A stretch of 64,000 bases of DNA from an uncultured virus (IMG/VR IMGVR_UViG_2061766007_001614). Its lineage: Duplodnaviria; Heunggongvirae; Uroviricota; Caudoviricetes. Both the position numbers and the translations under genes were made by a program. The DNA is taken from IMG/VR virus record IMGVR_UViG_2061766007_001614; one strand, 5' to 3'. Below the pieces are notes generated by a model, which ran no database searches, was not told the DNA's origin, and saw nothing but the letters and a program-made list of their open reading frames with translations. Every line of letters starts with the position of its first letter. The stretch's first letter is position 1. Below, in pieces: positions 40,226 through 53,361 of the stretch.

Positions 40226-40549
40226 TCATCCATTCAGCACCTCTTTCCAGAACTCTTCCCTTTGCCGGTCGTTCATATGCTCATACGACCAGTTGAGCAC
40301 CGCATTCTTGATTTCCCTTATGGACTTAACGCCCATATTGCGCATCTTATAAAGATCCGCGCTGCTGATTTCCAGTAGATCATCCACCGTCTTTATCTGA
40401 GCTCTCTTGAGCCCGTTTGATGCACGGGCCCCCAGGTTCAGCTCATCGATTGAAACTCCCTTTGTGTTGTACACCGGGAATCCACTCAGGCCACTCTTTA
40501 GCTTGAAGCCTTTCGTTTCCATTACTGCCAAGTCACTGCTAAAACTCAT
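40226..40549 (-). CDS. stand-alone RNA polymerase alpha-CTD-like protein
   Basis: SIDELNLGARASNGLKRAQIKTVDDL...L.KMRNMGVKSIREIK parallels RpoA CTD [22 protein letters not shown].EL...KVRNLGRKSLEEV. Confidence 0.85.
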   Translation of the reverse strand: MSFSSDLAVMETKGFKLKSGLSGFPVYNTKGVSIDELNLGARASNGLKRAQIKTVDDLLEISSADLYKMRNMGVKSIREIKNAVLNWSYEHMNDRQREEFWKEVLNG

Positions 40550-40984
40550 TTCGCTTTTACCTCCCATTCATAGTTGTTTAGCTTGCACTGTCCTACCTTG
40601 TTGGCATCCGCATCGAATACCACAAGTCGTTTGCCTATTACCAATACTTCAACACCGGATTTCTCTTTGAACATAGTCCTTACCTTCCTTTCTCTCAGTC
40701 TCCATAGTAATCGTTGATCGCATCCTGAATGTCGCTTGTCCAAACCTCAATCATCCTGACTCTCCTTTCCGTCTGCCTTTGGCAGCTCCCTTTCAATAAG
40801 CACCTTTACCTTATCCAGTGCCTGTAAGTCATCAATATGCATTGTCTTTTCTGCACACTCTGCGTAAAACTCCGCAAAGAGCGCATTCAAGAGAATTCCG
40901 TTCTGCATGAGCGTCACCATCCTTTCCCTAACACCGTGCGTGTTTTTAATGTGGTTATCGCATCCACAAAAAAGCACCGTCTGC

Positions 40985-42058
40985 CTTTGAGGCCAGGAGC
41001 CATAATGCTCCGGACGATGCTCTGCGTTTTAATTTCGTAGCAGATCGCAAACTGCCTAGTGGATTGCTTCCCTTTGCGGGTACGCCTTACGCGAGCAATC
41101 CAAGTGTGGAGAACACCCCTCTCCACGGGAGGCTTGACACATCTTATCCACCTTTCTCACAAGATTTCGCTTGTCAAGGAGCTACTCCCCTGTAGGCTCA
41201 CTTTGCTTAGGTAGAGCTTCTCGTTCACCTATCATACCATTCCTAGGCAGTATGATTTACCTTTGGGATTTCCCTTTTCCCACGACATCGGAGTTTGCTT
41301 TATCTACCCACGGTTTCCCGCCTAGAAAGGAAGTATCCTTCTCCCTCAAAAGCACCATTTGCCTTGAAGCCAGACGCTTTCCGTCATGGTGCTGATGAGC
41401 CCCGTTTCGCTTTAGGTGTCTGACGTTCTAGGGTGCGCGCTTACCCTAGGATACGCCACTGCCACTCAATGAAGGCTTTGGTTTGCCTTCTGGGGCTGTT
41501 TACCTTGAGGTTACCGGCCTCAAGGGGTGTTTGCGCTTTTCCCTTAGCGACCACCTGGACGGGTTACGCCCATTTCCCTCGGTGGATAGAGAGAGTGCAC
41601 GCATAGACCATGCACGATCCCATAAGCCATCATCTCCTTTCTCAGAAGGGTTCTGCCTTATGGTGCAGTTCCCTTCCTGTCCACTGTTTAGGCCGTGGTC
41701 TCTCGCCTGTCTCCACTTCCCAGGGCTGGTGACATTACCCCTTTATCGTTGGTGTATTCTGCGCCCCACCAACCAGGGCTCCTGAGTTCGTCTCATCCTG
41801 ATTACCTCGTCAAAACCATGTCTCGCACCTACACACTAGCCTCTGCTAGCCCTCAACCTCATGAGTCAGCCCCCGTCATTCGTCAATGACAGGCTATAAC
41901 TCGCCTCATTATTGCACCTCGGTGCAGTTACCCATACCGGCTATTATGTCACTGACATGCCACCGGTAAGCATGTCAGCTAAGACGCCTAGTTTTTAGGC
42001 TCAGCTAAACGCCGCGTCAAGCGTCGCCGTCCGCCTCTTCAGGGATGGGTTTATATAG
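40985..42058 (-). ncRNA. candidate large ornate non-coding RNA (about 1.07 kb, 5' boundary at a gap)
   Basis: GC-richer than flanks, no credible ORF, more than 15 inverted repeats, GNRA-type loops on the minus strand, loop-to-distal complementarities. Confidence 0.7.
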
Positions 42059-42300
42059 CNNNNNNNNNNNNNNNNNNNNNNCTAATGCACACGGACTTGT
42101 GACCGTTCACCCGTCAGGGTGAGTGCATTAAGGCAGGATCCACCCGCCCCACTCTGCAGTTATTCCTCAAGTATTGACCCTAGAGCCTTAGAAAATGCTT
42201 CATCGTCCCACTCAATATTCCCAGCATCAACCGGGATTTCATGGGCAAACATCTCGTCAATGTACTCAAAGAGGTCGTTCAGGTTCATCTCATCCATAAG

Positions 42301-42492
42301 TCATCCTCTCCAATCTCGTTCACCCATCGCCAGTCCCATCCGGTTATAATTCACCACCGCGGTCCTCGCGTAGTCATACTCCATCGGTGTCTCACCGGCC
42401 CGGCCCTCGAGATACACATCATCCCAGGCCGCTTTGATGTATGACCCACCAGCAAACGTTTTACCATGATACTTCGCCTTGATCGTTACCAT
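42301..42492 (-). CDS. small hypothetical protein
   Basis: 63-aa ORF with GAGAGGGA SD. Confidence 0.55.
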   Translation of the reverse strand: MVTIKAKYHGKTFAGGSYIKAAWDDVYLEGRAGETPMEYDYARTAVVNYNRMGLAMGERDWRG

Positions 42493-42652
42493 AATCCAAT
42501 CCCTCTCTTTCGTGTGTTGACAGACAGTCGCCCCTCAGAATCCATAGTCGCAATAGCCCTATGAACCCCTACCCGGTGCAACCTTATCTGACACTATTAC
42601 TATGCAATAGGGAAGCGGGTGTTTAAGGGCACACCCACCAAAGCCCCGTAAA

Positions 42653-43225
42653 TCATCCCTGAAGTGATGCATAGAGGTAAAGCGCAAGCTGTACTTCCCA
42701 CTGCTTCGCACTCCTCTTGGCAAACTTCACCGGCTCATACTTTCCAAGCCTAAGCCCTGTATATCTGCATGACTTGAATCCCTCGAGAATAGTCTCGTTA
42801 GCATCCCTGTAGGGCTTAACCTTTACTCCCAGTACATCTCCGGCCACCTTGCAGAGCCTCTTTACCGTGTTTGCATCTACCGTGTTCTTCTGAAGTCGTT
42901 CGATGCAGTTAGCGACTTCTTTCAAAAACTCCTCGGACGCCTCGAGCTTATCGGTGAAACGTCCCATTGCCAGTGTGATTAAGTCCTTATCACCCTCTGA
43001 CAGCTTGTCATAAGCATCCTTGCGTGCCAGTACGTCCTCAGCATCCTTGAGTGCCTTGTCAAGATTGGCAGTTGCCACGATTACAAAAGGCGAGTCCTCT
43101 CCAAGATCCTTTTTCAGGTTCTTCAGTTCGTCCTCTTTCGCTGCTATCTGCTCAGCCTTTTTCACGTACTGAACGTAATCCTTTACGATTGAATAATCCT
43201 TACGAGTCTCAAATAATGACATATA
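42653..43225 (-). CDS. hypothetical helical protein, first gene of the left arm
   Basis: Long ORF; GAGAGGA SD before MSLFETRK. Confidence 0.65.
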   Translation of the reverse strand, partial: YMSLFETRKDYSIVKDYVQYVKKAEQIAAKEDELKNLKKDLGEDSPFVIVATANLDKALKDAEDVLARKDAYDKLSEGDKDLITLAMGRFTDKLEASEEFLKEVANCIERLQKNTVDANTVKRLCKVAGDVLGVKVKPYRDANETILEGFKSCRYTGLRLGKYEPVKFAKRSAKQWEVQLALYLYASLQG

Positions 43226-43704
43226 GTCCTCTCTTTCCCCGTCCATCGACGGCATAAACAATGTTTTTTGGTATGCCCTATTGCACACTAATAGTGCCAG
43301 ACTATAAGCCTAGCACTACACACGGTTTATACGGGATTTATGGAATTATTCCATGCGGTTGTCTGTCAGTCGATTATTCCTAAGCACGCCCCTTTTGTGA
43401 GGTCGCCCCGTTNNNNNNNNNNNNNNNNNNNNNNNNNNNNNNNNNNNNNNNNNNNNNNNNNNNNNNNNNNNNNNNNNNNNNNNNNNNNNNNNNNNNNNNN
43501 NNNNNNNNNNNNNNNNNACCCTTTTGTTGCATAATACACGCCTAGCATGCTACCTATCTAATAGGTTATGTCCCTGTTAAGGGTCGGACAAAACTCTTAA
43601 CGATTGACAAAAGTCAATCCGTCGGCGCTTGCCCCTGCGCCCCTATTGAATTATTCAACTAACCGATAAACACTACCTCCTAACCGCCTAGGCTCTTGCC
43701 CTTG

Positions 43705-50053: not shown

Positions 50054-51340
50054 ATGCCAAGACCAAAAGGAAATAAAAACACTCTCCCGCCTATTAAAAA
50101 GGTCCGGGAAGAAAATGAAAAACTGCGAGCGGCTATGGAGAATGGATGCCGCTGTGCAAAGTGTGGCCAGATAAAAGATAAAGATAAATGGTTTTATTGG
50201 GATGCCGATCCCATGCTTGGTGGTGATTCGTTCTCGCGTATATGTAAAGACTGTGCAAAGGGAATTGCCCTTGGACGGGATGAAGAAGGACACGAGATGG
50301 AGAACCCCACAAAGGAAACTGCCCAGAAAGCTCTTATGTATCTGAACAGACCTTTCCTTGATACTATATGGAATGCGTCCGTTCAGGAGTCGCAGAATAT
50401 GATGACCGGAAAGAATAAGTGGAATATCTGGTCTGCATATGTGAAAAACATGCAGATGCAGCAATATGCCGGTATGACTTATCTGGACTCTGACCACTTA
50501 AAGAAAAGTACCAAGGTAGAAAAATCCGGTAAACGGACAAGCGTTAATAAAATGCTTGAAGACCATGCCGGTATGGATACCTATGATTCATTTGCTAAGA
50601 ATAAAGCTGATGTTGTAAGGCTGCTTGACTATGATCCATTTGAAGCGGAGCTCATAGCTGACCAGCCTTTTTTATATGCGCAGCTTTTGATGCTTATGGA
50701 TTCAAACCAGGATCAGGAAATGGATATGATAAGAACGTCCTCTGCAATTTCAATTGTAAGAGGATTTCTTCAGGAAAATAAACTGAATGACGCTATATCA
50801 AAACTCATGGGAGATATTGAACATGTCCAAAGGAATTCCGCTACTATCAAGTCTCTTCAGGATGCTAAACAGAAGGTTGTTGCGCAGATAACAACACTTG
50901 CTGCAGAAAGCTGCCTGTCACTAAAGAACAGTAAAACAGCTACCAGAGGGGACAATACCTGGACTGGAAGAATTAAGAAGATAAGAGACCTGAACCTTTA
51001 TGAGACCAACGGTTTTGATATTGCAACCTGTAAAGGCATGCAACAGGTTCAGGAGATATCCGATGCTTCCATAATGAAACAGCTTGCTCTTGATGATAGT
51101 GACTGGTCAGATATGGTCGCCGAACAGCGGAACCTGATAGCAGAACTTCAGAAAGAGCGAGACCAGTACAAGGAAATAAATCGTCTTTTATTGAAGGAAA
51201 ACATAGGGCTTAAAGACACATTGGAAGAAAAAGGATATGACGTAAAAGGAAACACCAAAAATCTTAAAGAGATCTACTCTGTATTTGCGGGACAGGAGGA
51301 AGACATCGATGAAGAACCAGAAACTGATGATGCCGACTGA
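50054..51340 (+). CDS. zinc-finger protein upstream of terminase (possible small terminase/packaging protein)
   Basis: CRCAKC...FY...ICKDC, LNRPF...W; position as in the SPbeta-like head module. Confidence 0.55.
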   Translation: MPRPKGNKNTLPPIKKVREENEKLRAAMENGCRCAKCGQIKDKDKWFYWDADPMLGGDSFSRICKDCAKGIALGRDEEGHEMENPTKETAQKALMYLNRPFLDTIWNASVQESQNMMTGKNKWNIWSAYVKNMQMQQYAGMTYLDSDHLKKSTKVEKSGKRTSVNKMLEDHAGMDTYDSFAKNKADVVRLLDYDPFEAELIADQPFLYAQLLMLMDSNQDQEMDMIRTSSAISIVRGFLQENKLNDAISKLMGDIEHVQRNSATIKSLQDAKQKVVAQITTLAAESCLSLKNSKTATRGDNTWTGRIKKIRDLNLYETNGFDIATCKGMQQVQEISDASIMKQLALDDSDWSDMVAEQRNLIAELQKERDQYKEINRLLLKENIGLKDTLEEKGYDVKGNTKNLKEIYSVFAGQEEDIDEEPETDDAD

Positions 51341-53361
51341 CATGAACCTCCCATACGATAAGGATTTCTTTAAAGATTATGGAGTATACGTTAAACCGAT
51401 AAATTACGCATTGTCCCAAAGGAAGGTAGAATCCTTACTTGAGATAGCCAAGATGCAGAAGTACTTCCAATGCAATCCAGTCCAATGGATAGATATCATG
51501 TACAATATTGAGCTTATAGACTCGCAGGCTCTTGTTGTACAGAAATCGTGGACATGTCCTCATTTCCTGGCAGTGTGCAGTAGGGGATGGGGAAAGTCTA
51601 CAGTTATAGATCTGGAGCTCATGGCTAAAGATTCTCTGTTTTGTAATTACTGGGCATATATTGCTTCTGGTACCGGCTCACAGGCCGAGAATACTTTTAT
51701 TACATTAGAAAAACTGGCAAACGATAATATAGATACTTTTGAAGGCTCGACGGGAAAAATCTTCAAAGACGAAGTTATAGTAAAGGCGGCCTCGGGAGAT
51801 GGCTTTTGTCACACTCCGGGTAGCTTTAACTACCAGCTTTATAACGGATCACAAACGGCAACATTAAATTCGAACATAGATTCGAAGCGTGGTTTCAGGG
51901 GCTCCGTTATATTTGATGAGNNNNNNNNNNNNNNNNNNNNNNNNNNNNATGAAGGTGTATGGAGCATTTGCCATTGTTGAAAAAGGTTTTAAGACCGGTA
52001 AAGTAGACGGTCATTCCATAGACCCTATACGACAGAGAACTTTTGCAACTAATATCCCAAATCAGTTGTTTTATATTTCTTCTGCATCTTCTACAGACAC
52101 TCCGTTTTATGCTTTATATAAAGAATTTTCAAAGCGAATGATAATGGGTGACCCTGACTATTATGTTGTCCATATTGATTGTGAGCAGGCATTTAAACCT
52201 ACTCTCCGTGGAGAACTGATAGCTCCCCTCCTCTCTCGTTCGACTGTTAAGTCTGAGATGAGAACCAATCCTGAAAAGGCAAGGCGCGAGTATTATTGCC
52301 AGTTCACAACAGATGCGGGTAACGATGCCATTGTTAAACGAGGAGTTATTGTAAGGAATGAAGAAATACGTCCGCCTGTCCTCAGTGGTGATGGCAAGCA
52401 CAAATATATTATTGCTTATGATCCTGCTCGTCAGAGGGATAACTCTTTCATTCTTGTAGGAGAAGTGTATGACGAAAAGAACCCTGACGGTTCAAAAGAT
52501 ACCAAGTGCCGATTGGTAAATGGTATCAATCTGTTGGATGTAGGAAAGAAAATTAAAAGTCCTATGCAGACTCCCGACCAGGTGAAGTATTTAAAACAAG
52601 TCATATTGGACTATAATGCCGGTGCGGATAATTACGACAATATAATCGGAGTATATATTGATGCCGGAGCCGGTGGTGGTGGAGTATCCATTGCGGATTA
52701 CCTCATGGCTGACTGGGAGGATGACAAAGGGAATCTTCATCCGGGACTCATTGATAAAGAATTCTCTGAGGACTACGTGAGTAAATTCCCTAATGCTATA
52801 AATAAATTGCATCTTATGGCTCCATCTAAGTGGAAGTCTCAGATGTTTGAAGAACTGATTGAGATGGTCAACCAAGACAAAATAAAATTCACTGCGTCCT
52901 ACGACCATAAAGGATATATCACAACTTTTGATATAGATGAGGATCTTCTAAAAAAGGAAAAGAAACGCATCAGTGATAAGTTGAAAGCTGAACAGGGACT
53001 GGAGGGTGACGAACTTACCAAGGCAGTAAAAGAAGAACTGACAAAAGCGGAAACTATCAAGACAAAGATGGTGAAGCTTAGCTGGTTTGAAGAGCTTGCC
53101 CTTAGTAATATTGATGCCCTAAAAGAGGAGGCAGTGAACATCGCGAGGAAGAAGAATACTTCCGGAAGAGATTCTTTCGATCTCATCCCGGAAAAGGCTC
53201 ATACTCTTCACGATGATAGAATGTACTGCCTGAGTCTTCTCAGCCATTCGCTTTATGGACTACGTAGAAAAGAATTAGTTGGAAGACCAAAACAATCAAA
53301 TGATGAATTACTAAGGAAGCTTGCATCAAGTATGCGGGCTTCTTCTATTATTCAAAGATAA
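51309..53361 (+). CDS. terminase large subunit (split by gap)
   Basis: SRGWGKST Walker A, IFDE Walker B, YISSAS coupling motif, AYDPAR RNase H fold, HDDR. Confidence 0.9.

What the first reader, a model, noticed from the sequence alone, without database searches (positions are those of the whole stretch)
40985..42058. Candidate giant structured ncRNA (about 1.07 kb) at the head of the phage early arm
Seen: a GC-richer kilobase with no credible gene in an otherwise gene-packed arm, filled with perfect stems. Examples are TGGATTGCT/AGCAATCCA (41060/41094), GTGGAGA/TCTCCAC (41106/41120), CTTGACA/TGTCAAG (41133/41172), AGCACCAT/ATGGTGCT (41351/41386), CTAGGGT/ACCCTAG (41428/41443), GAAGGC/GCCTTC (41471/41485), CCTTGAGG/CCTCAAGG (41503/41518) and CTGACATGC/GCATGTCAG (41952/41970). 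Several loops read GAAA/GTAA (GNRA) on the minus strand, the sense strand of the arm. There are two pseudoknot candidates: the loop of ATCATAC/GTATGAT (41231-41256) carries CTAGGCA, complementary to TGCCTAG at 41053, and the loop CCGGTA of the 41952 hairpin is complementary to TACCGG at 41935. Known: phages carry large ornate RNAs such as GOLLD and ROOL, which are shorter than this. Inference: a possibly new large RNA class. It could be a scaffold/cage, an anti-defence decoy, or an antitermination element for the roughly 40-kb arm downstream.
Basis: partly seen in the sequence, partly recalled or inferred. Interest (0 to 1): 0.85.

Follow-up and report, generated by a model that had tools for sequence, protein, structure and literature searches.

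The report
Twister-fronted kilobase phage noncoding RNA
A ruminant-gut phage carries a gene-free stretch of about 1.1 kb, unusually rich in hairpins, that sits right behind a self-cleaving twister ribozyme and matches no catalogued RNA family, so it is probably a new large structured RNA of unknown function.

Summary
All 11 stem and pseudoknot words sit at the stated coordinates. Perfect local hairpins number 10, against 1.7 in shuffles (0 of 500 reach 10). No frame is open, under the standard code or with any single stop reassigned.

A type-P5 twister ribozyme (Rfam RF02684, 42.5 bits, cut-off 37.6) lies at 42158..42091 on the minus strand. It follows a 45-aa ORF directly and precedes the stretch directly. 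A Y-shaped stem plus U6 (41022..40968) closes the unit, which I estimate at about 1.16 kb.

The body matches no Rfam family at E up to 10, including GOLLD, ROOL, OLE and introns. Relatives occur in four laid ruminant-gut runs from four other studies, and in one metagenome contig with different neighbours and no twister.

Those relatives differ by 1-2-nt indels, some compensatory stem changes, and a 335-nt domain swapped for 37 nt. Covariation is only modest because homologues are few.

Six of eight related phage loci hold an unrelated, equally gene-free kb-sized RNA-like cassette at the same slot, with tRNA-like T-arm hairpins at its ends.

Best reading (0.6): a new, modular, large structured phage RNA. 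Its function is untested.

The parts
42091..42158 (-). Type-P5 twister self-cleaving ribozyme. It starts 2 nt after the stop codon of the 45-aa ORF. The predicted cut (site recalled from the literature, not from a call) lies between 42130 and 42129.
   Evidence: Rfam RF02684: 42.5 bits against a gathering score of 37.6, E 1.7e-5 for the whole window, model positions 1-58 of 58. Its local fold has z -3.4.
42060..42081 (.). Run of 22 N (withheld letters) between the ribozyme and the RNA body. Its content was not examined.
   Evidence: It is one of 53 N runs scattered over the window.
41855..42059 (-). 5' variable domain. It includes the 9-bp hairpin 41952/41970 and the multi-hairpin fold 41930-42058.
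   Evidence: Fold z -2.8. It is present at about 97% identity in the X8 contig. It is replaced by a shorter, unalignable 5' part in L009.
41398..41854 (-). Conserved core: a chain of local hairpins. These include GUUGGUG/CACCAAC with a 12-nt loop, CCAUAAG/CUUAUGG, GUGCAUG/CGUGCAC, a 28-nt stretch invariant against L009, and CCUUGAGG/CCUCAAGG with loop CCGGUAA.
   Evidence: L009 is 87.7% identical over 41506-41796. The X20 contig is about 91% identical over 41470-41758, and X3, X8 and X9 also cover it. Compensatory changes are listed.
41063..41397 (-). Optional 335-nt domain with many hairpins, including 41133/41172, 41231/41250 and 41351/41386.
   Evidence: A 72-kb contig of run X8 joins 41062 to 41398 with 37 other letters between them. 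A loose end in X9 agrees (tables 5, 5c, 7).
40968..41062 (-). 3' domain. A Y-shaped stem (41022..40974) is followed by U6 (40973..40968), a terminator-like 3' end.
   Evidence: Fold -36.4 kcal/mol, z -2.3. The simple terminator scan does not list it. X8 and X9 cover it.
42160..42297 (-). Upstream 45-aa ORF whose stop abuts the twister. It follows 63-aa and 211-aa ORFs of the same operon.
   Evidence: No family match.
40747..40920 (-). First ORF downstream of the RNA. The listed GTG start at 40977 overlaps the terminator. I read an ATG at 40920 or 40908 behind a GGAAAGGA as the likelier start.
   Evidence: The choice of start is my reading.

Best explanation
The unit at about 42158..40968 on the minus strand is a large, modular, structured non-coding RNA of a temperate ruminant-gut phage, and it represents a family not in Rfam.

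Proposed course of events. The RNA is transcribed with the leftward early operon, or possibly from a promoter of its own at its 5' edge. The twister ribozyme cuts the transcript just after the 45-aa ORF. This separates the upstream mRNA and leaves the RNA with a 5'-hydroxyl end. A Y-shaped stem plus U-run ends it, giving a product of about 1.16 kb.

Make-up. The body has a conserved core of about 450 nt, built of local hairpins, many capped by GNRA-type loops. Around it sit exchangeable peripheral domains.

What is shown. The ribozyme match, the lack of coding capacity, the hairpin and GNRA excess on the minus strand, the frame-breaking indels, some compensatory changes in relatives, and the domain swap.

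What is inferred. That the ribozyme cleaves in vivo, that a discrete stable RNA accumulates, and that it acts in trans as a folded scaffold or assembly in the manner of GOLLD and ROOL.
For: 1. Twister. RF02684 scores above its gathering cut-off over the full model length. It lies on the same strand as the flanking genes and directly 5' of the stretch.

2. Hairpins. 10 perfect hairpins against 1.66 in shuffles, 0 of 500 reaching 10, and unique within the contig. The span-limited minimum free energy is -350.7 against -298.7 +- 12.6 in 60 shuffles.

3. Strand. 6 of 15 small loops start with GNRA on the minus strand, 0 of 11 on the plus strand, and 0 of 60 shuffles reach 6. The terminator-like stem plus U6 is also on the minus strand.

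4. Not coding. Stops of all three kinds occur in all frames. There are no family hits. Within otherwise 88-97% identical sequence, relatives carry 1-nt and 2-nt indels (table 4).

5. Structure kept in relatives. I took a structure from the window alone and counted it on the window/L009 alignment. Of 93 pairs, 5 changed on both sides and stayed paired. Slid controls gave 0-2, and 12 of 500 shuffles reached 5. Four of the 5 lie in well-aligned helices. In runs X3, X8 and X9, 41840 C>T goes with 41845 G>A. In X8, 41864 A>G goes with 41901 T>C. Changes at 41569, 41835, 41865 and 41898 keep pairs through G-U on the minus strand only (my mapping). In L009 the stem CCUUGAGG/CCUCAAGG is rewritten while its loop CCGGUAA is kept.

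6. Modularity. The 335-nt domain is replaced by 37 nt in X8 and X9. The 5' domain is replaced in L009.

7. Divergence. In the X8 contig the RNA diverges no faster than the adjacent genes: 22 differences in 662 nt, against 6 in 176 and 16 in 369 (table 8).

8. Independent contexts. L009 has different upstream genes.

9. Same slot in related phages. Six of eight loci hold another conserved ORF-free kb-sized element there.
Against: Homologues are few, so covariation is weak.

- On the window/L009 alignment, paired and unpaired columns differ equally often: 32 of 181 against 29 of 162.
- Single-sided changes in helices split 5 that keep a pair on the minus strand against 6 that give A-C, which would be G-U on the plus strand. 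That comparison therefore gives no strand signal.
- 41519 C>T in X8 breaks a minus-strand pair, unless a partner change lies among the 53 differences that one search did not print.
- Long-range pairs of the window's own minimum-free-energy fold mostly break in L009: 26 of 111.
- Energy z-scores of 400-nt windows are not distinctive, and the plus strand scores at least as well.
- There is no direct evidence of transcription. The only RNA-library hit is one 476-nt contig of a relative about 91% identical, and DNA carry-over cannot be excluded.
- L009 has no twister, so the ribozyme is not an obligatory part of the family.
- Among 83 other phage twisters sampled, none is followed by an ORF-free kilobase. 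The adjacency could therefore be incidental.
Confidence: 0.6

Rival explanations
1. It is a cis-acting leader rather than a trans-acting RNA. The long structured segment would control read-through of its own terminator, or the stability of the downstream early mRNA (small ORFs, an RpoA-alpha-CTD-like protein, a PC4-like protein). This would be an outsized antitermination or processing element.
For: It lies inside an operon and ends in a terminator-like stem. That stem must be read through for the roughly 40 kb of downstream minus-strand genes, unless they have promoters of their own. Twister and hammerhead ribozymes have been proposed to process polycistronic mRNAs and to alter their stability (PMC6765202, passages read).
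Against: No antitermination RNA family of Rfam matches at E up to 10. By my recollection (not checked here), the known elements are tens to about 100 nt long, not 1.1 kb. Whole domains of 335 nt come and go without loss of the neighbouring genes. Related phages with the same downstream genes lack it: 0 of 8 loci.
Confidence: 0.12
2. It is not a functional RNA. It would be a non-coding spacer, decayed gene remnants, or a DNA-level element whose inverted repeats act as DNA (protein-binding palindromes, or an origin or packaging site). The twister would be next to it by chance.
For: The window/L009 comparison gives no strand preference, and paired and unpaired columns differ equally often. Perfect palindromes are by nature strand-symmetric. 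Phage twisters are common and usually sit between small genes.
Against: The GNRA-loop excess is found on the minus strand only. Several changes are wobble-compatible on the minus strand only. There are no direct repeats or iterons. The replication genes lie about 28 kb away. Divergence in the X8 contig is no higher than in the neighbouring genes. The element recurs in a different genomic context in L009.
Confidence: 0.13
3. It is a selfish, mobile RNA-level or cassette-like element. Examples would be an ORF-less intron-like element or a ribozyme-associated element that moves between phages without serving the phage.
For: It is patchy. It is absent from 8 of 8 related phage loci and present next to unrelated genes in L009. 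GC is higher than in the flanks. It carries its own processing and termination signals.
Against: No group I or II intron, retron or other mobile-RNA family matches at E up to 10. It interrupts no gene. There is no reverse transcriptase, transposase or homing endonuclease next to it. No terminal repeats were found. It has a single ribozyme, not a flanking pair.
Confidence: 0.1

Closest known systems
GOLLD RNA (Rfam RF01998)
   Same: A very large, hairpin-rich RNA encoded by phages and prophages. It has a conserved part plus a less conserved part, and its function is unknown (PMC12286853, passages read). Here too there is a conserved core with exchangeable domains.
   Different: The Rfam library gives no match at E up to 10. 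The window has no tRNA. This RNA is longer (about 1.1 kb). A twister sits at its 5' edge. Multimer or cage formation is untested.
ROOL RNA (Rfam RF03087)
   Same: It was first found in cow rumen metagenomes and occurs in phages and prophages. It has many multistem junctions and its function is unknown (PMC5737381, PMC12286853, passages read). The habitat is the same: the runs laid here are ruminant-gut runs.
   Different: No Rfam match. This RNA is about twice ROOL's average 581 nt. No tRNA neighbours. The pseudoknots are not supported here.
Twister ribozyme, type P5 (RF02684), as an mRNA-processing element
   Same: The 5' element is a member by Rfam's own cut-off. As in other phage examples, it sits just after a small ORF inside an operon.
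   Different: Among 83 other sampled phage twisters with at least 900 nt downstream, none is followed by 1 kb with a longest open frame of 90 codons or fewer (minimum 95, median 165). Here the figure is 80 over 1091 nt.
The 'family B' element of related phages
   Same: It occupies the same slot in the leftward early operon. It is about 0.8-1.4 kb, ORF-poor, purine-rich on the sense strand and conserved, and its predicted pairs covary. Its ends are marked by RNA-processing-type signals.
   Different: No detectable homology. An nhmmer profile gives no hit at E up to 100. A covariance model of its core gives no hit at E up to 10 in the window or L009. Its ends carry tRNA-like T-arm hairpins rather than a ribozyme.

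Membership tests
Twister ribozyme type P5 (RF02684), 5' element only | Score at or above Rfam's gathering cut-off over the full covariance model | tested here: met
   42.5 bits against 37.6, model positions 1-58 of 58, E 1.7e-5 for the whole window.
Twister ribozyme type P5 (RF02684), 5' element only | Site-specific self-cleavage giving a 2',3'-cyclic phosphate and a 5'-OH | not testable with these tools
   This needs an in-vitro cleavage assay or sequencing specific for 5'-OH ends. The runs laid were contigs, which cannot show RNA ends.
GOLLD (RF01998) | Match to the family covariance model (conserved 3' region) | tested here: not met
   No hit at E up to 10 in 40400-42700 on either strand. 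None at the gathering score in the window.
GOLLD / ROOL | Frequent location next to tRNA genes or tRNA islands | tested here: not met
   ARAGORN finds 0 tRNAs in the 64-kb window. Rfam finds none.
GOLLD / ROOL | Encoded in phages or prophages | tested here: met
   The window carries portal, terminase, head protease, integrase and replication genes.
ROOL (RF03087) | Match to the family covariance model | tested here: not met
   No hit at E up to 10.
GOLLD / ROOL | Homo-oligomeric nanocage assembly | not testable with these tools
   This needs cryo-EM, native gels or mass photometry.
Group II / group I introns, OLE, RNase P, tmRNA | Match to any Rfam model of these families; for introns, interruption of a host gene | tested here: not met
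   No hit at E up to 10. The upstream ORF ends at its own stop codon before the ribozyme. ARAGORN finds no tmRNA.
Protein-coding gene or pseudogene | An open frame, family similarity, or indels in multiples of three | tested here: not met
   The longest open stretch on the minus strand is 80 codons and no stop reassignment helps. None of the 13 ORFs has a significant Pfam or PHROG hit. Relatives carry 1-nt and 2-nt indels.
Conserved structured RNA (generic criterion) | Statistically supported covariation in an alignment of homologues | tested here: inconclusive
   Only two alignable sequences plus variant lists were available. Five compensatory pairs against 0-2 in slid controls, with 12 of 500 shuffles reaching 5. 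Paired and unpaired columns differ equally often, and G-U against A-C outcomes split 5:6.

The most novel reading that the evidence does not exclude
This is a previously undescribed class of ornate phage RNA of more than 1.1 kb, longer than GOLLD and so among the largest structured non-ribosomal, non-intron RNAs of bacteria and phages. A twister ribozyme releases it from an early operon.

It would be one of at least two unrelated kilobase-scale RNA cassettes that occupy the same slot in a clade of ruminant-gut temperate phages. The other cassette is bracketed by tRNA-like elements.

That would point to a general 'large RNA slot' whose products are cut out of the transcript by RNA-processing signals and act as RNA-only scaffolds or assemblies during infection or lysogeny.
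Probability: 0.35. Interest if true: 0.85.

Novelty: new variant of a known kind. Interest (0 to 1): 0.7.

Why it matters
Very large structured RNAs outside ribosomes and introns are rare. The few known ones (OLE, GOLLD, ROOL) turned out to form unprecedented RNA-only assemblies, and their biology is still unknown.

A new family of more than 1 kb from the habitat where ROOL was first found, with a defined self-cleaved 5' end, would be a ready-made object for cryo-EM and for asking what such RNAs do for phages.

It would also give one of the orphan phage twister ribozymes a concrete job: liberating a non-coding RNA from an operon. The parallel with the tRNA-like-flanked cassette in sister phages suggests that the slot, rather than the sequence, is what is conserved.

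The caveat is that the structural evidence rests on few homologues and there is no expression data.

Tried and rejected
Searches for homologues of the window RNA
- blastn (distant mode) against 50,697 GenBank phage records: no match.
- Exact or degenerate pattern scans of IMG/VR: 0 window-type hits in 4 scans. The 7 matches were the family-B contig plus 6 unrelated coding sites.
- GTDB species genomes: 0 hits in 2 scans.
- JGI metagenomes: 1 hit, L009.
- Loci around relatives of the two flanking proteins: none found.
- nhmmer of the RNA against 136 further loci (L010 and up): nothing.

Window RNA against family B
- By eye they share a word (GGUGGGGC..AUACACC). In family B that word is a hairpin loop whose stem covaries; in the window it is a stem strand.
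- The profile search and the covariance-model search found no link. I rejected homology as undetectable.

Pseudoknots and kissing loops
- The words exist, but loop-loop complementarity is not above chance.
- An 8-nt complement, UAUCCACC against GGUGGAUA, lies inside the optional domain that X8 and X9 lack.

Other checks
- Folding energy per 400-nt window does not discriminate the region from the coding flanks.
- The window's own long-range minimum-free-energy pairs are not kept in L009.
- Runs with small shares that I did not lay (X15-X19) are not used as evidence.
- Parts of the stretch without cover in X3, X9 and X20 are not interpreted.
- The X20 RNA-library contig shows presence only, not transcription.
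- Rfam finds no tRNA at the T-arm-like hairpins of family B, and ARAGORN finds none either. 'tRNA-like' there rests on a motif count and my own reading.
- Literature searches listed no paper describing a kb-sized phage RNA behind a twister. The 2023 phage survey PMC10690425 reports candidates of 29-151 nt only (passages read). Its supplements were not opened.

Full report
**Setting**

The window is a phage contig; no whole genome is held for it. A minus-strand arm runs from about 43288 downwards. It holds small early genes, an RpoA-alpha-CTD-like protein, a PC4-like protein, an integrase, and SSB, ERF, replisome-organiser and DnaB-like genes. A plus-strand arm from 44449 holds the head protease, terminase and portal genes. 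The window carries 53 scattered runs of N. One of them, 42060-42081, touches the finding, and I did not look into it.

**The observation**

The hairpin density is real. There are 10 perfect hairpins (stem >=7, loop 3-40) in 40985-42058. In 500 dinucleotide shuffles the mean is 1.66 +- 1.33 and none reaches 10. The 52 other N-free windows of the same length have a median of 3, and the highest non-overlapping one has 6.

The region is not coding:
- All three stop codons occur in all six frames.
- The longest standard open stretch on the minus strand is 80 codons.
- No single stop reassignment opens the region.
- Thirteen internal ORFs give no Pfam hit and no significant PHROG hit.

GC is modestly higher than in the flanks.

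Thermodynamic z-scores alone are not convincing. The figure is -4.4 for 999 nt. In 400-nt windows, however, the region does not stand out from coding neighbours, and the plus strand scores as well as the minus.

The only Rfam match at gathering level in the whole window is a type-P5 twister ribozyme at 42158..42091 on the minus strand (42.5 bits against 37.6, full model length). It begins two bases after the stop codon of a 45-aa ORF, and the ORF-free stretch follows it.

At the other end, 41022..40974 forms a Y-shaped stem followed by six U at 40973..40968. The simple terminator scan does not list it.

From the literature as I recall it, twister cuts at the U-A step of the conserved UAAUGC. 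That would be between 42130 and 42129. The 3' product would then be about 1.16 kb, start with a 5'-OH and include the 3' part of the ribozyme.

A -10-like TATA word lies just after the N run. A promoter of the RNA's own therefore cannot be excluded.

The body matches no Rfam family at E up to 10 on either strand.

**Strand**

Four things point to the minus strand: the gene orientation, the ribozyme, the U-run, and the loops. Six of 15 predicted 4-5-nt hairpin loops start with GNRA on the minus strand, against 0 of 11 on the plus strand. In 60 shuffles the mean is 1.1, the maximum is 4, and none reaches 6.

**Relatives**

GenBank phages, IMG/VR and GTDB genomes gave nothing.

Public runs do hold the stretch. 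One search returned 20 rows in 14 studies, 3 of them from the possible source sample. I laid 4 runs from 4 other studies, and all 4 hold relatives.

- Run X8 (sheep gut): a 72-kb contig about 96-97% identical that also carries the flanking genes.
- Runs X3 and X9: fragments.
- Run X20 (an RNA library): one 476-nt contig about 91% identical over 41470-41758. This shows presence, not transcription.

One JGI contig, L009, is 87.7% identical over 41796..41506. It is preceded by different genes, a shorter and unalignable 5' part, and no twister.

**What the variation says**

*Indels.* One- and two-base indels are tolerated inside otherwise conserved sequence (table 4). That excludes coding.

*Domain swap.* In X8 a contig joins 41062 to 41398 with 37 other letters in place of 335 nt, and X9 agrees. 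By my reading the replacement folds into a small hairpin. This is how peripheral domains of large RNAs behave.

*Compensatory changes in the runs.* 41840/41845 change together in X3, X8 and X9. 41864/41901 change together in X8. By eye, CCC/GGG becomes UCC/GGA in an X3 loose end.

*Wobble-compatible changes.* Four single changes keep pairs through G-U on the minus strand only. One change, at 41519, does the opposite. One search left 53 differences unprinted, so partner changes may be hidden.

*Window against L009.* I took a structure from the window alone (pair span up to 70 nt). Of 93 pairs, 5 changed on both sides and stayed paired. Slid controls gave 0-2, and 12 of 500 shuffles reached 5.

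*Evidence on the other side.*
- Paired and unpaired columns differ equally often (32 of 181 against 29 of 162).
- Single-sided changes split 5 pair-keeping against 6 A-C.
- Long-range minimum-free-energy pairs mostly fail in L009.

Overall, local hairpins are supported, the global architecture is unknown, and the covariation evidence is suggestive rather than conclusive.

*Divergence.* In the X8 contig the RNA diverges no faster than the neighbouring genes: 22 in 662, against 6 in 176 and 16 in 369.

**Comparative context**

Eight IMG/VR loci were found through the 476-aa plus-arm protein (59-80% identity). They share early-arm genes with the window. None has the window's RNA, and none of the 7 loci scanned has a twister.

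Six of the eight loci (L001, L002, L003, L004, L005, L006) hold something else at the same slot. Two of these, L001 and L002, are identical over the element, so there are five distinct sequences. It is a purine-rich, ORF-poor stretch of 0.8-1.4 kb, homologous among themselves (nhmmer E from 4e-127 to 2e-7). Of 68 predicted pairs, 31 show compensatory change. No Rfam match was found in the five of these loci that were scanned, or in the L001 element region at E up to 10, and no GenBank phage matches.

Its ends carry T-arm-like hairpins, a 5-bp stem with a 7-nt loop of the form U[UG]C[AG]AN[UC]. Eight of the 13 such hairpins in 268 kb of the seven loci lie at its ends. ARAGORN and Rfam do not call them tRNAs.

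This 'family B' is not detectably related to the window RNA. I read the two as alternative cassettes in one slot, each bracketed by RNA-processing-type signals: a ribozyme here, tRNA-like elements there. That reading is inference.

**The twister in perspective**

Many hold arrays of 2-8 copies. Of the 83 occurrences with at least 900 nt downstream, none is followed by 1 kb with a longest open frame of 90 codons or fewer; the minimum is 95 and the median 165. The window has 80 over 1091 nt.

A twister in front of an ORF-free kilobase is therefore unusual. Either the pairing is meaningful or it is a one-off adjacency. L009 shows the RNA can exist without it. A published proposal that bacterial twisters process polycistronic transcripts fits the role proposed here (PMC6765202, passages read).

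**Comparison with the known**

GOLLD and ROOL are the closest in kind. They are large, ornate, phage-borne and of unknown function, and ROOL comes from rumen (PMC5737381 and PMC12286853, passages read).

Membership fails on the tested features. There is no covariance-model match and no tRNA neighbourhood. Cage formation cannot be tested here.

Three literature searches listed no description of such an RNA. A 2023 survey of phage structured RNAs covers 29-151-nt candidates only. A 2026 preprint on phage ncRNA arrays concerns arrays that template cDNA synthesis by a reverse transcriptase (passages read); I saw no repeated units in this stretch and no reverse transcriptase among the ORFs scanned.

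**Verdict**

The most likely explanation is a new, modular, large structured phage RNA of about 1.16 kb, whose 5' end is set by a twister ribozyme and whose 3' end by a terminator-like stem (confidence 0.6).

The rivals are a cis-acting leader (0.12), a non-functional or DNA-level element (0.13) and a selfish cassette (0.10). Function is unknown. My committed guess is a trans-acting folded scaffold or assembly of the GOLLD/ROOL kind, and that guess is inference only.

Noticed in passing
L001 7260..6000 (-), L006 7300..6080 (-), L003 6170..5290 (-), L004 7725..6372 (-), L005 7112..5660 (-); L002 is identical to L001 over the element: A second, unrelated kb-sized ORF-poor conserved element ('family B') sits at the slot syntenic to the finding in related IMG/VR phages. 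Of 68 predicted pairs, 31 show compensatory change. There is no Rfam or GenBank-phage match. T-arm-like hairpins (GGUUCGAnUCC type) stand at its ends. It looks like another undescribed large phage RNA.
   Followed up: partly
IMG/VR loci L017 onwards, e.g. L094 (8 matches in 5 kb), L032 (5), L096 (4), L061 (5): Type-P5-like twister ribozyme patterns are frequent in viral contigs. They often form arrays spaced about 200-1500 nt apart, with small ORFs between them. This suggests systematic chopping of phage operon transcripts.
   Followed up: partly
window 40226-40567 (-): A 113-aa phage protein that consists essentially of an RNA polymerase alpha C-terminal domain (Pfam PF03118, E 3.9e-19). It lies about 400 nt downstream of the RNA's end in the same operon and is a possible modulator of host transcription.
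   Followed up: no
L009 1306-1357 (+): A sub-threshold match to the F. prausnitzii HDV-like ribozyme model (21.2 bits against 44, E 0.46). It lies between two ORFs about 230 nt upstream of the L009 copy of the RNA. If real, a different self-cleaver would stand near the RNA there.
   Followed up: no
window 40675-40694 and the contig of run X8: The X8 relative carries 435 extra letters in place of 18 nt inside or next to the 65-aa ORF downstream of the RNA (table 5). This is a gene-sized indel in the early operon.
   Followed up: no
window 42200-42599 (-) and 43000-43399 (-): These stretches, which cover the small ORFs and the start of the operon upstream of the twister, fold with z -4.05 and -3.46 (15 shuffles). 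That is as strong as or stronger than the finding itself in windows of the same size.
   Followed up: no
window 51285-51980 and 51889-53361 (+): The terminase large-subunit similarity (phrog_2) is split over two overlapping ORFs, with an N run (51921-51948) at the junction. The split could be a frameshift, an intervening element or an effect of the masking.
   Followed up: no
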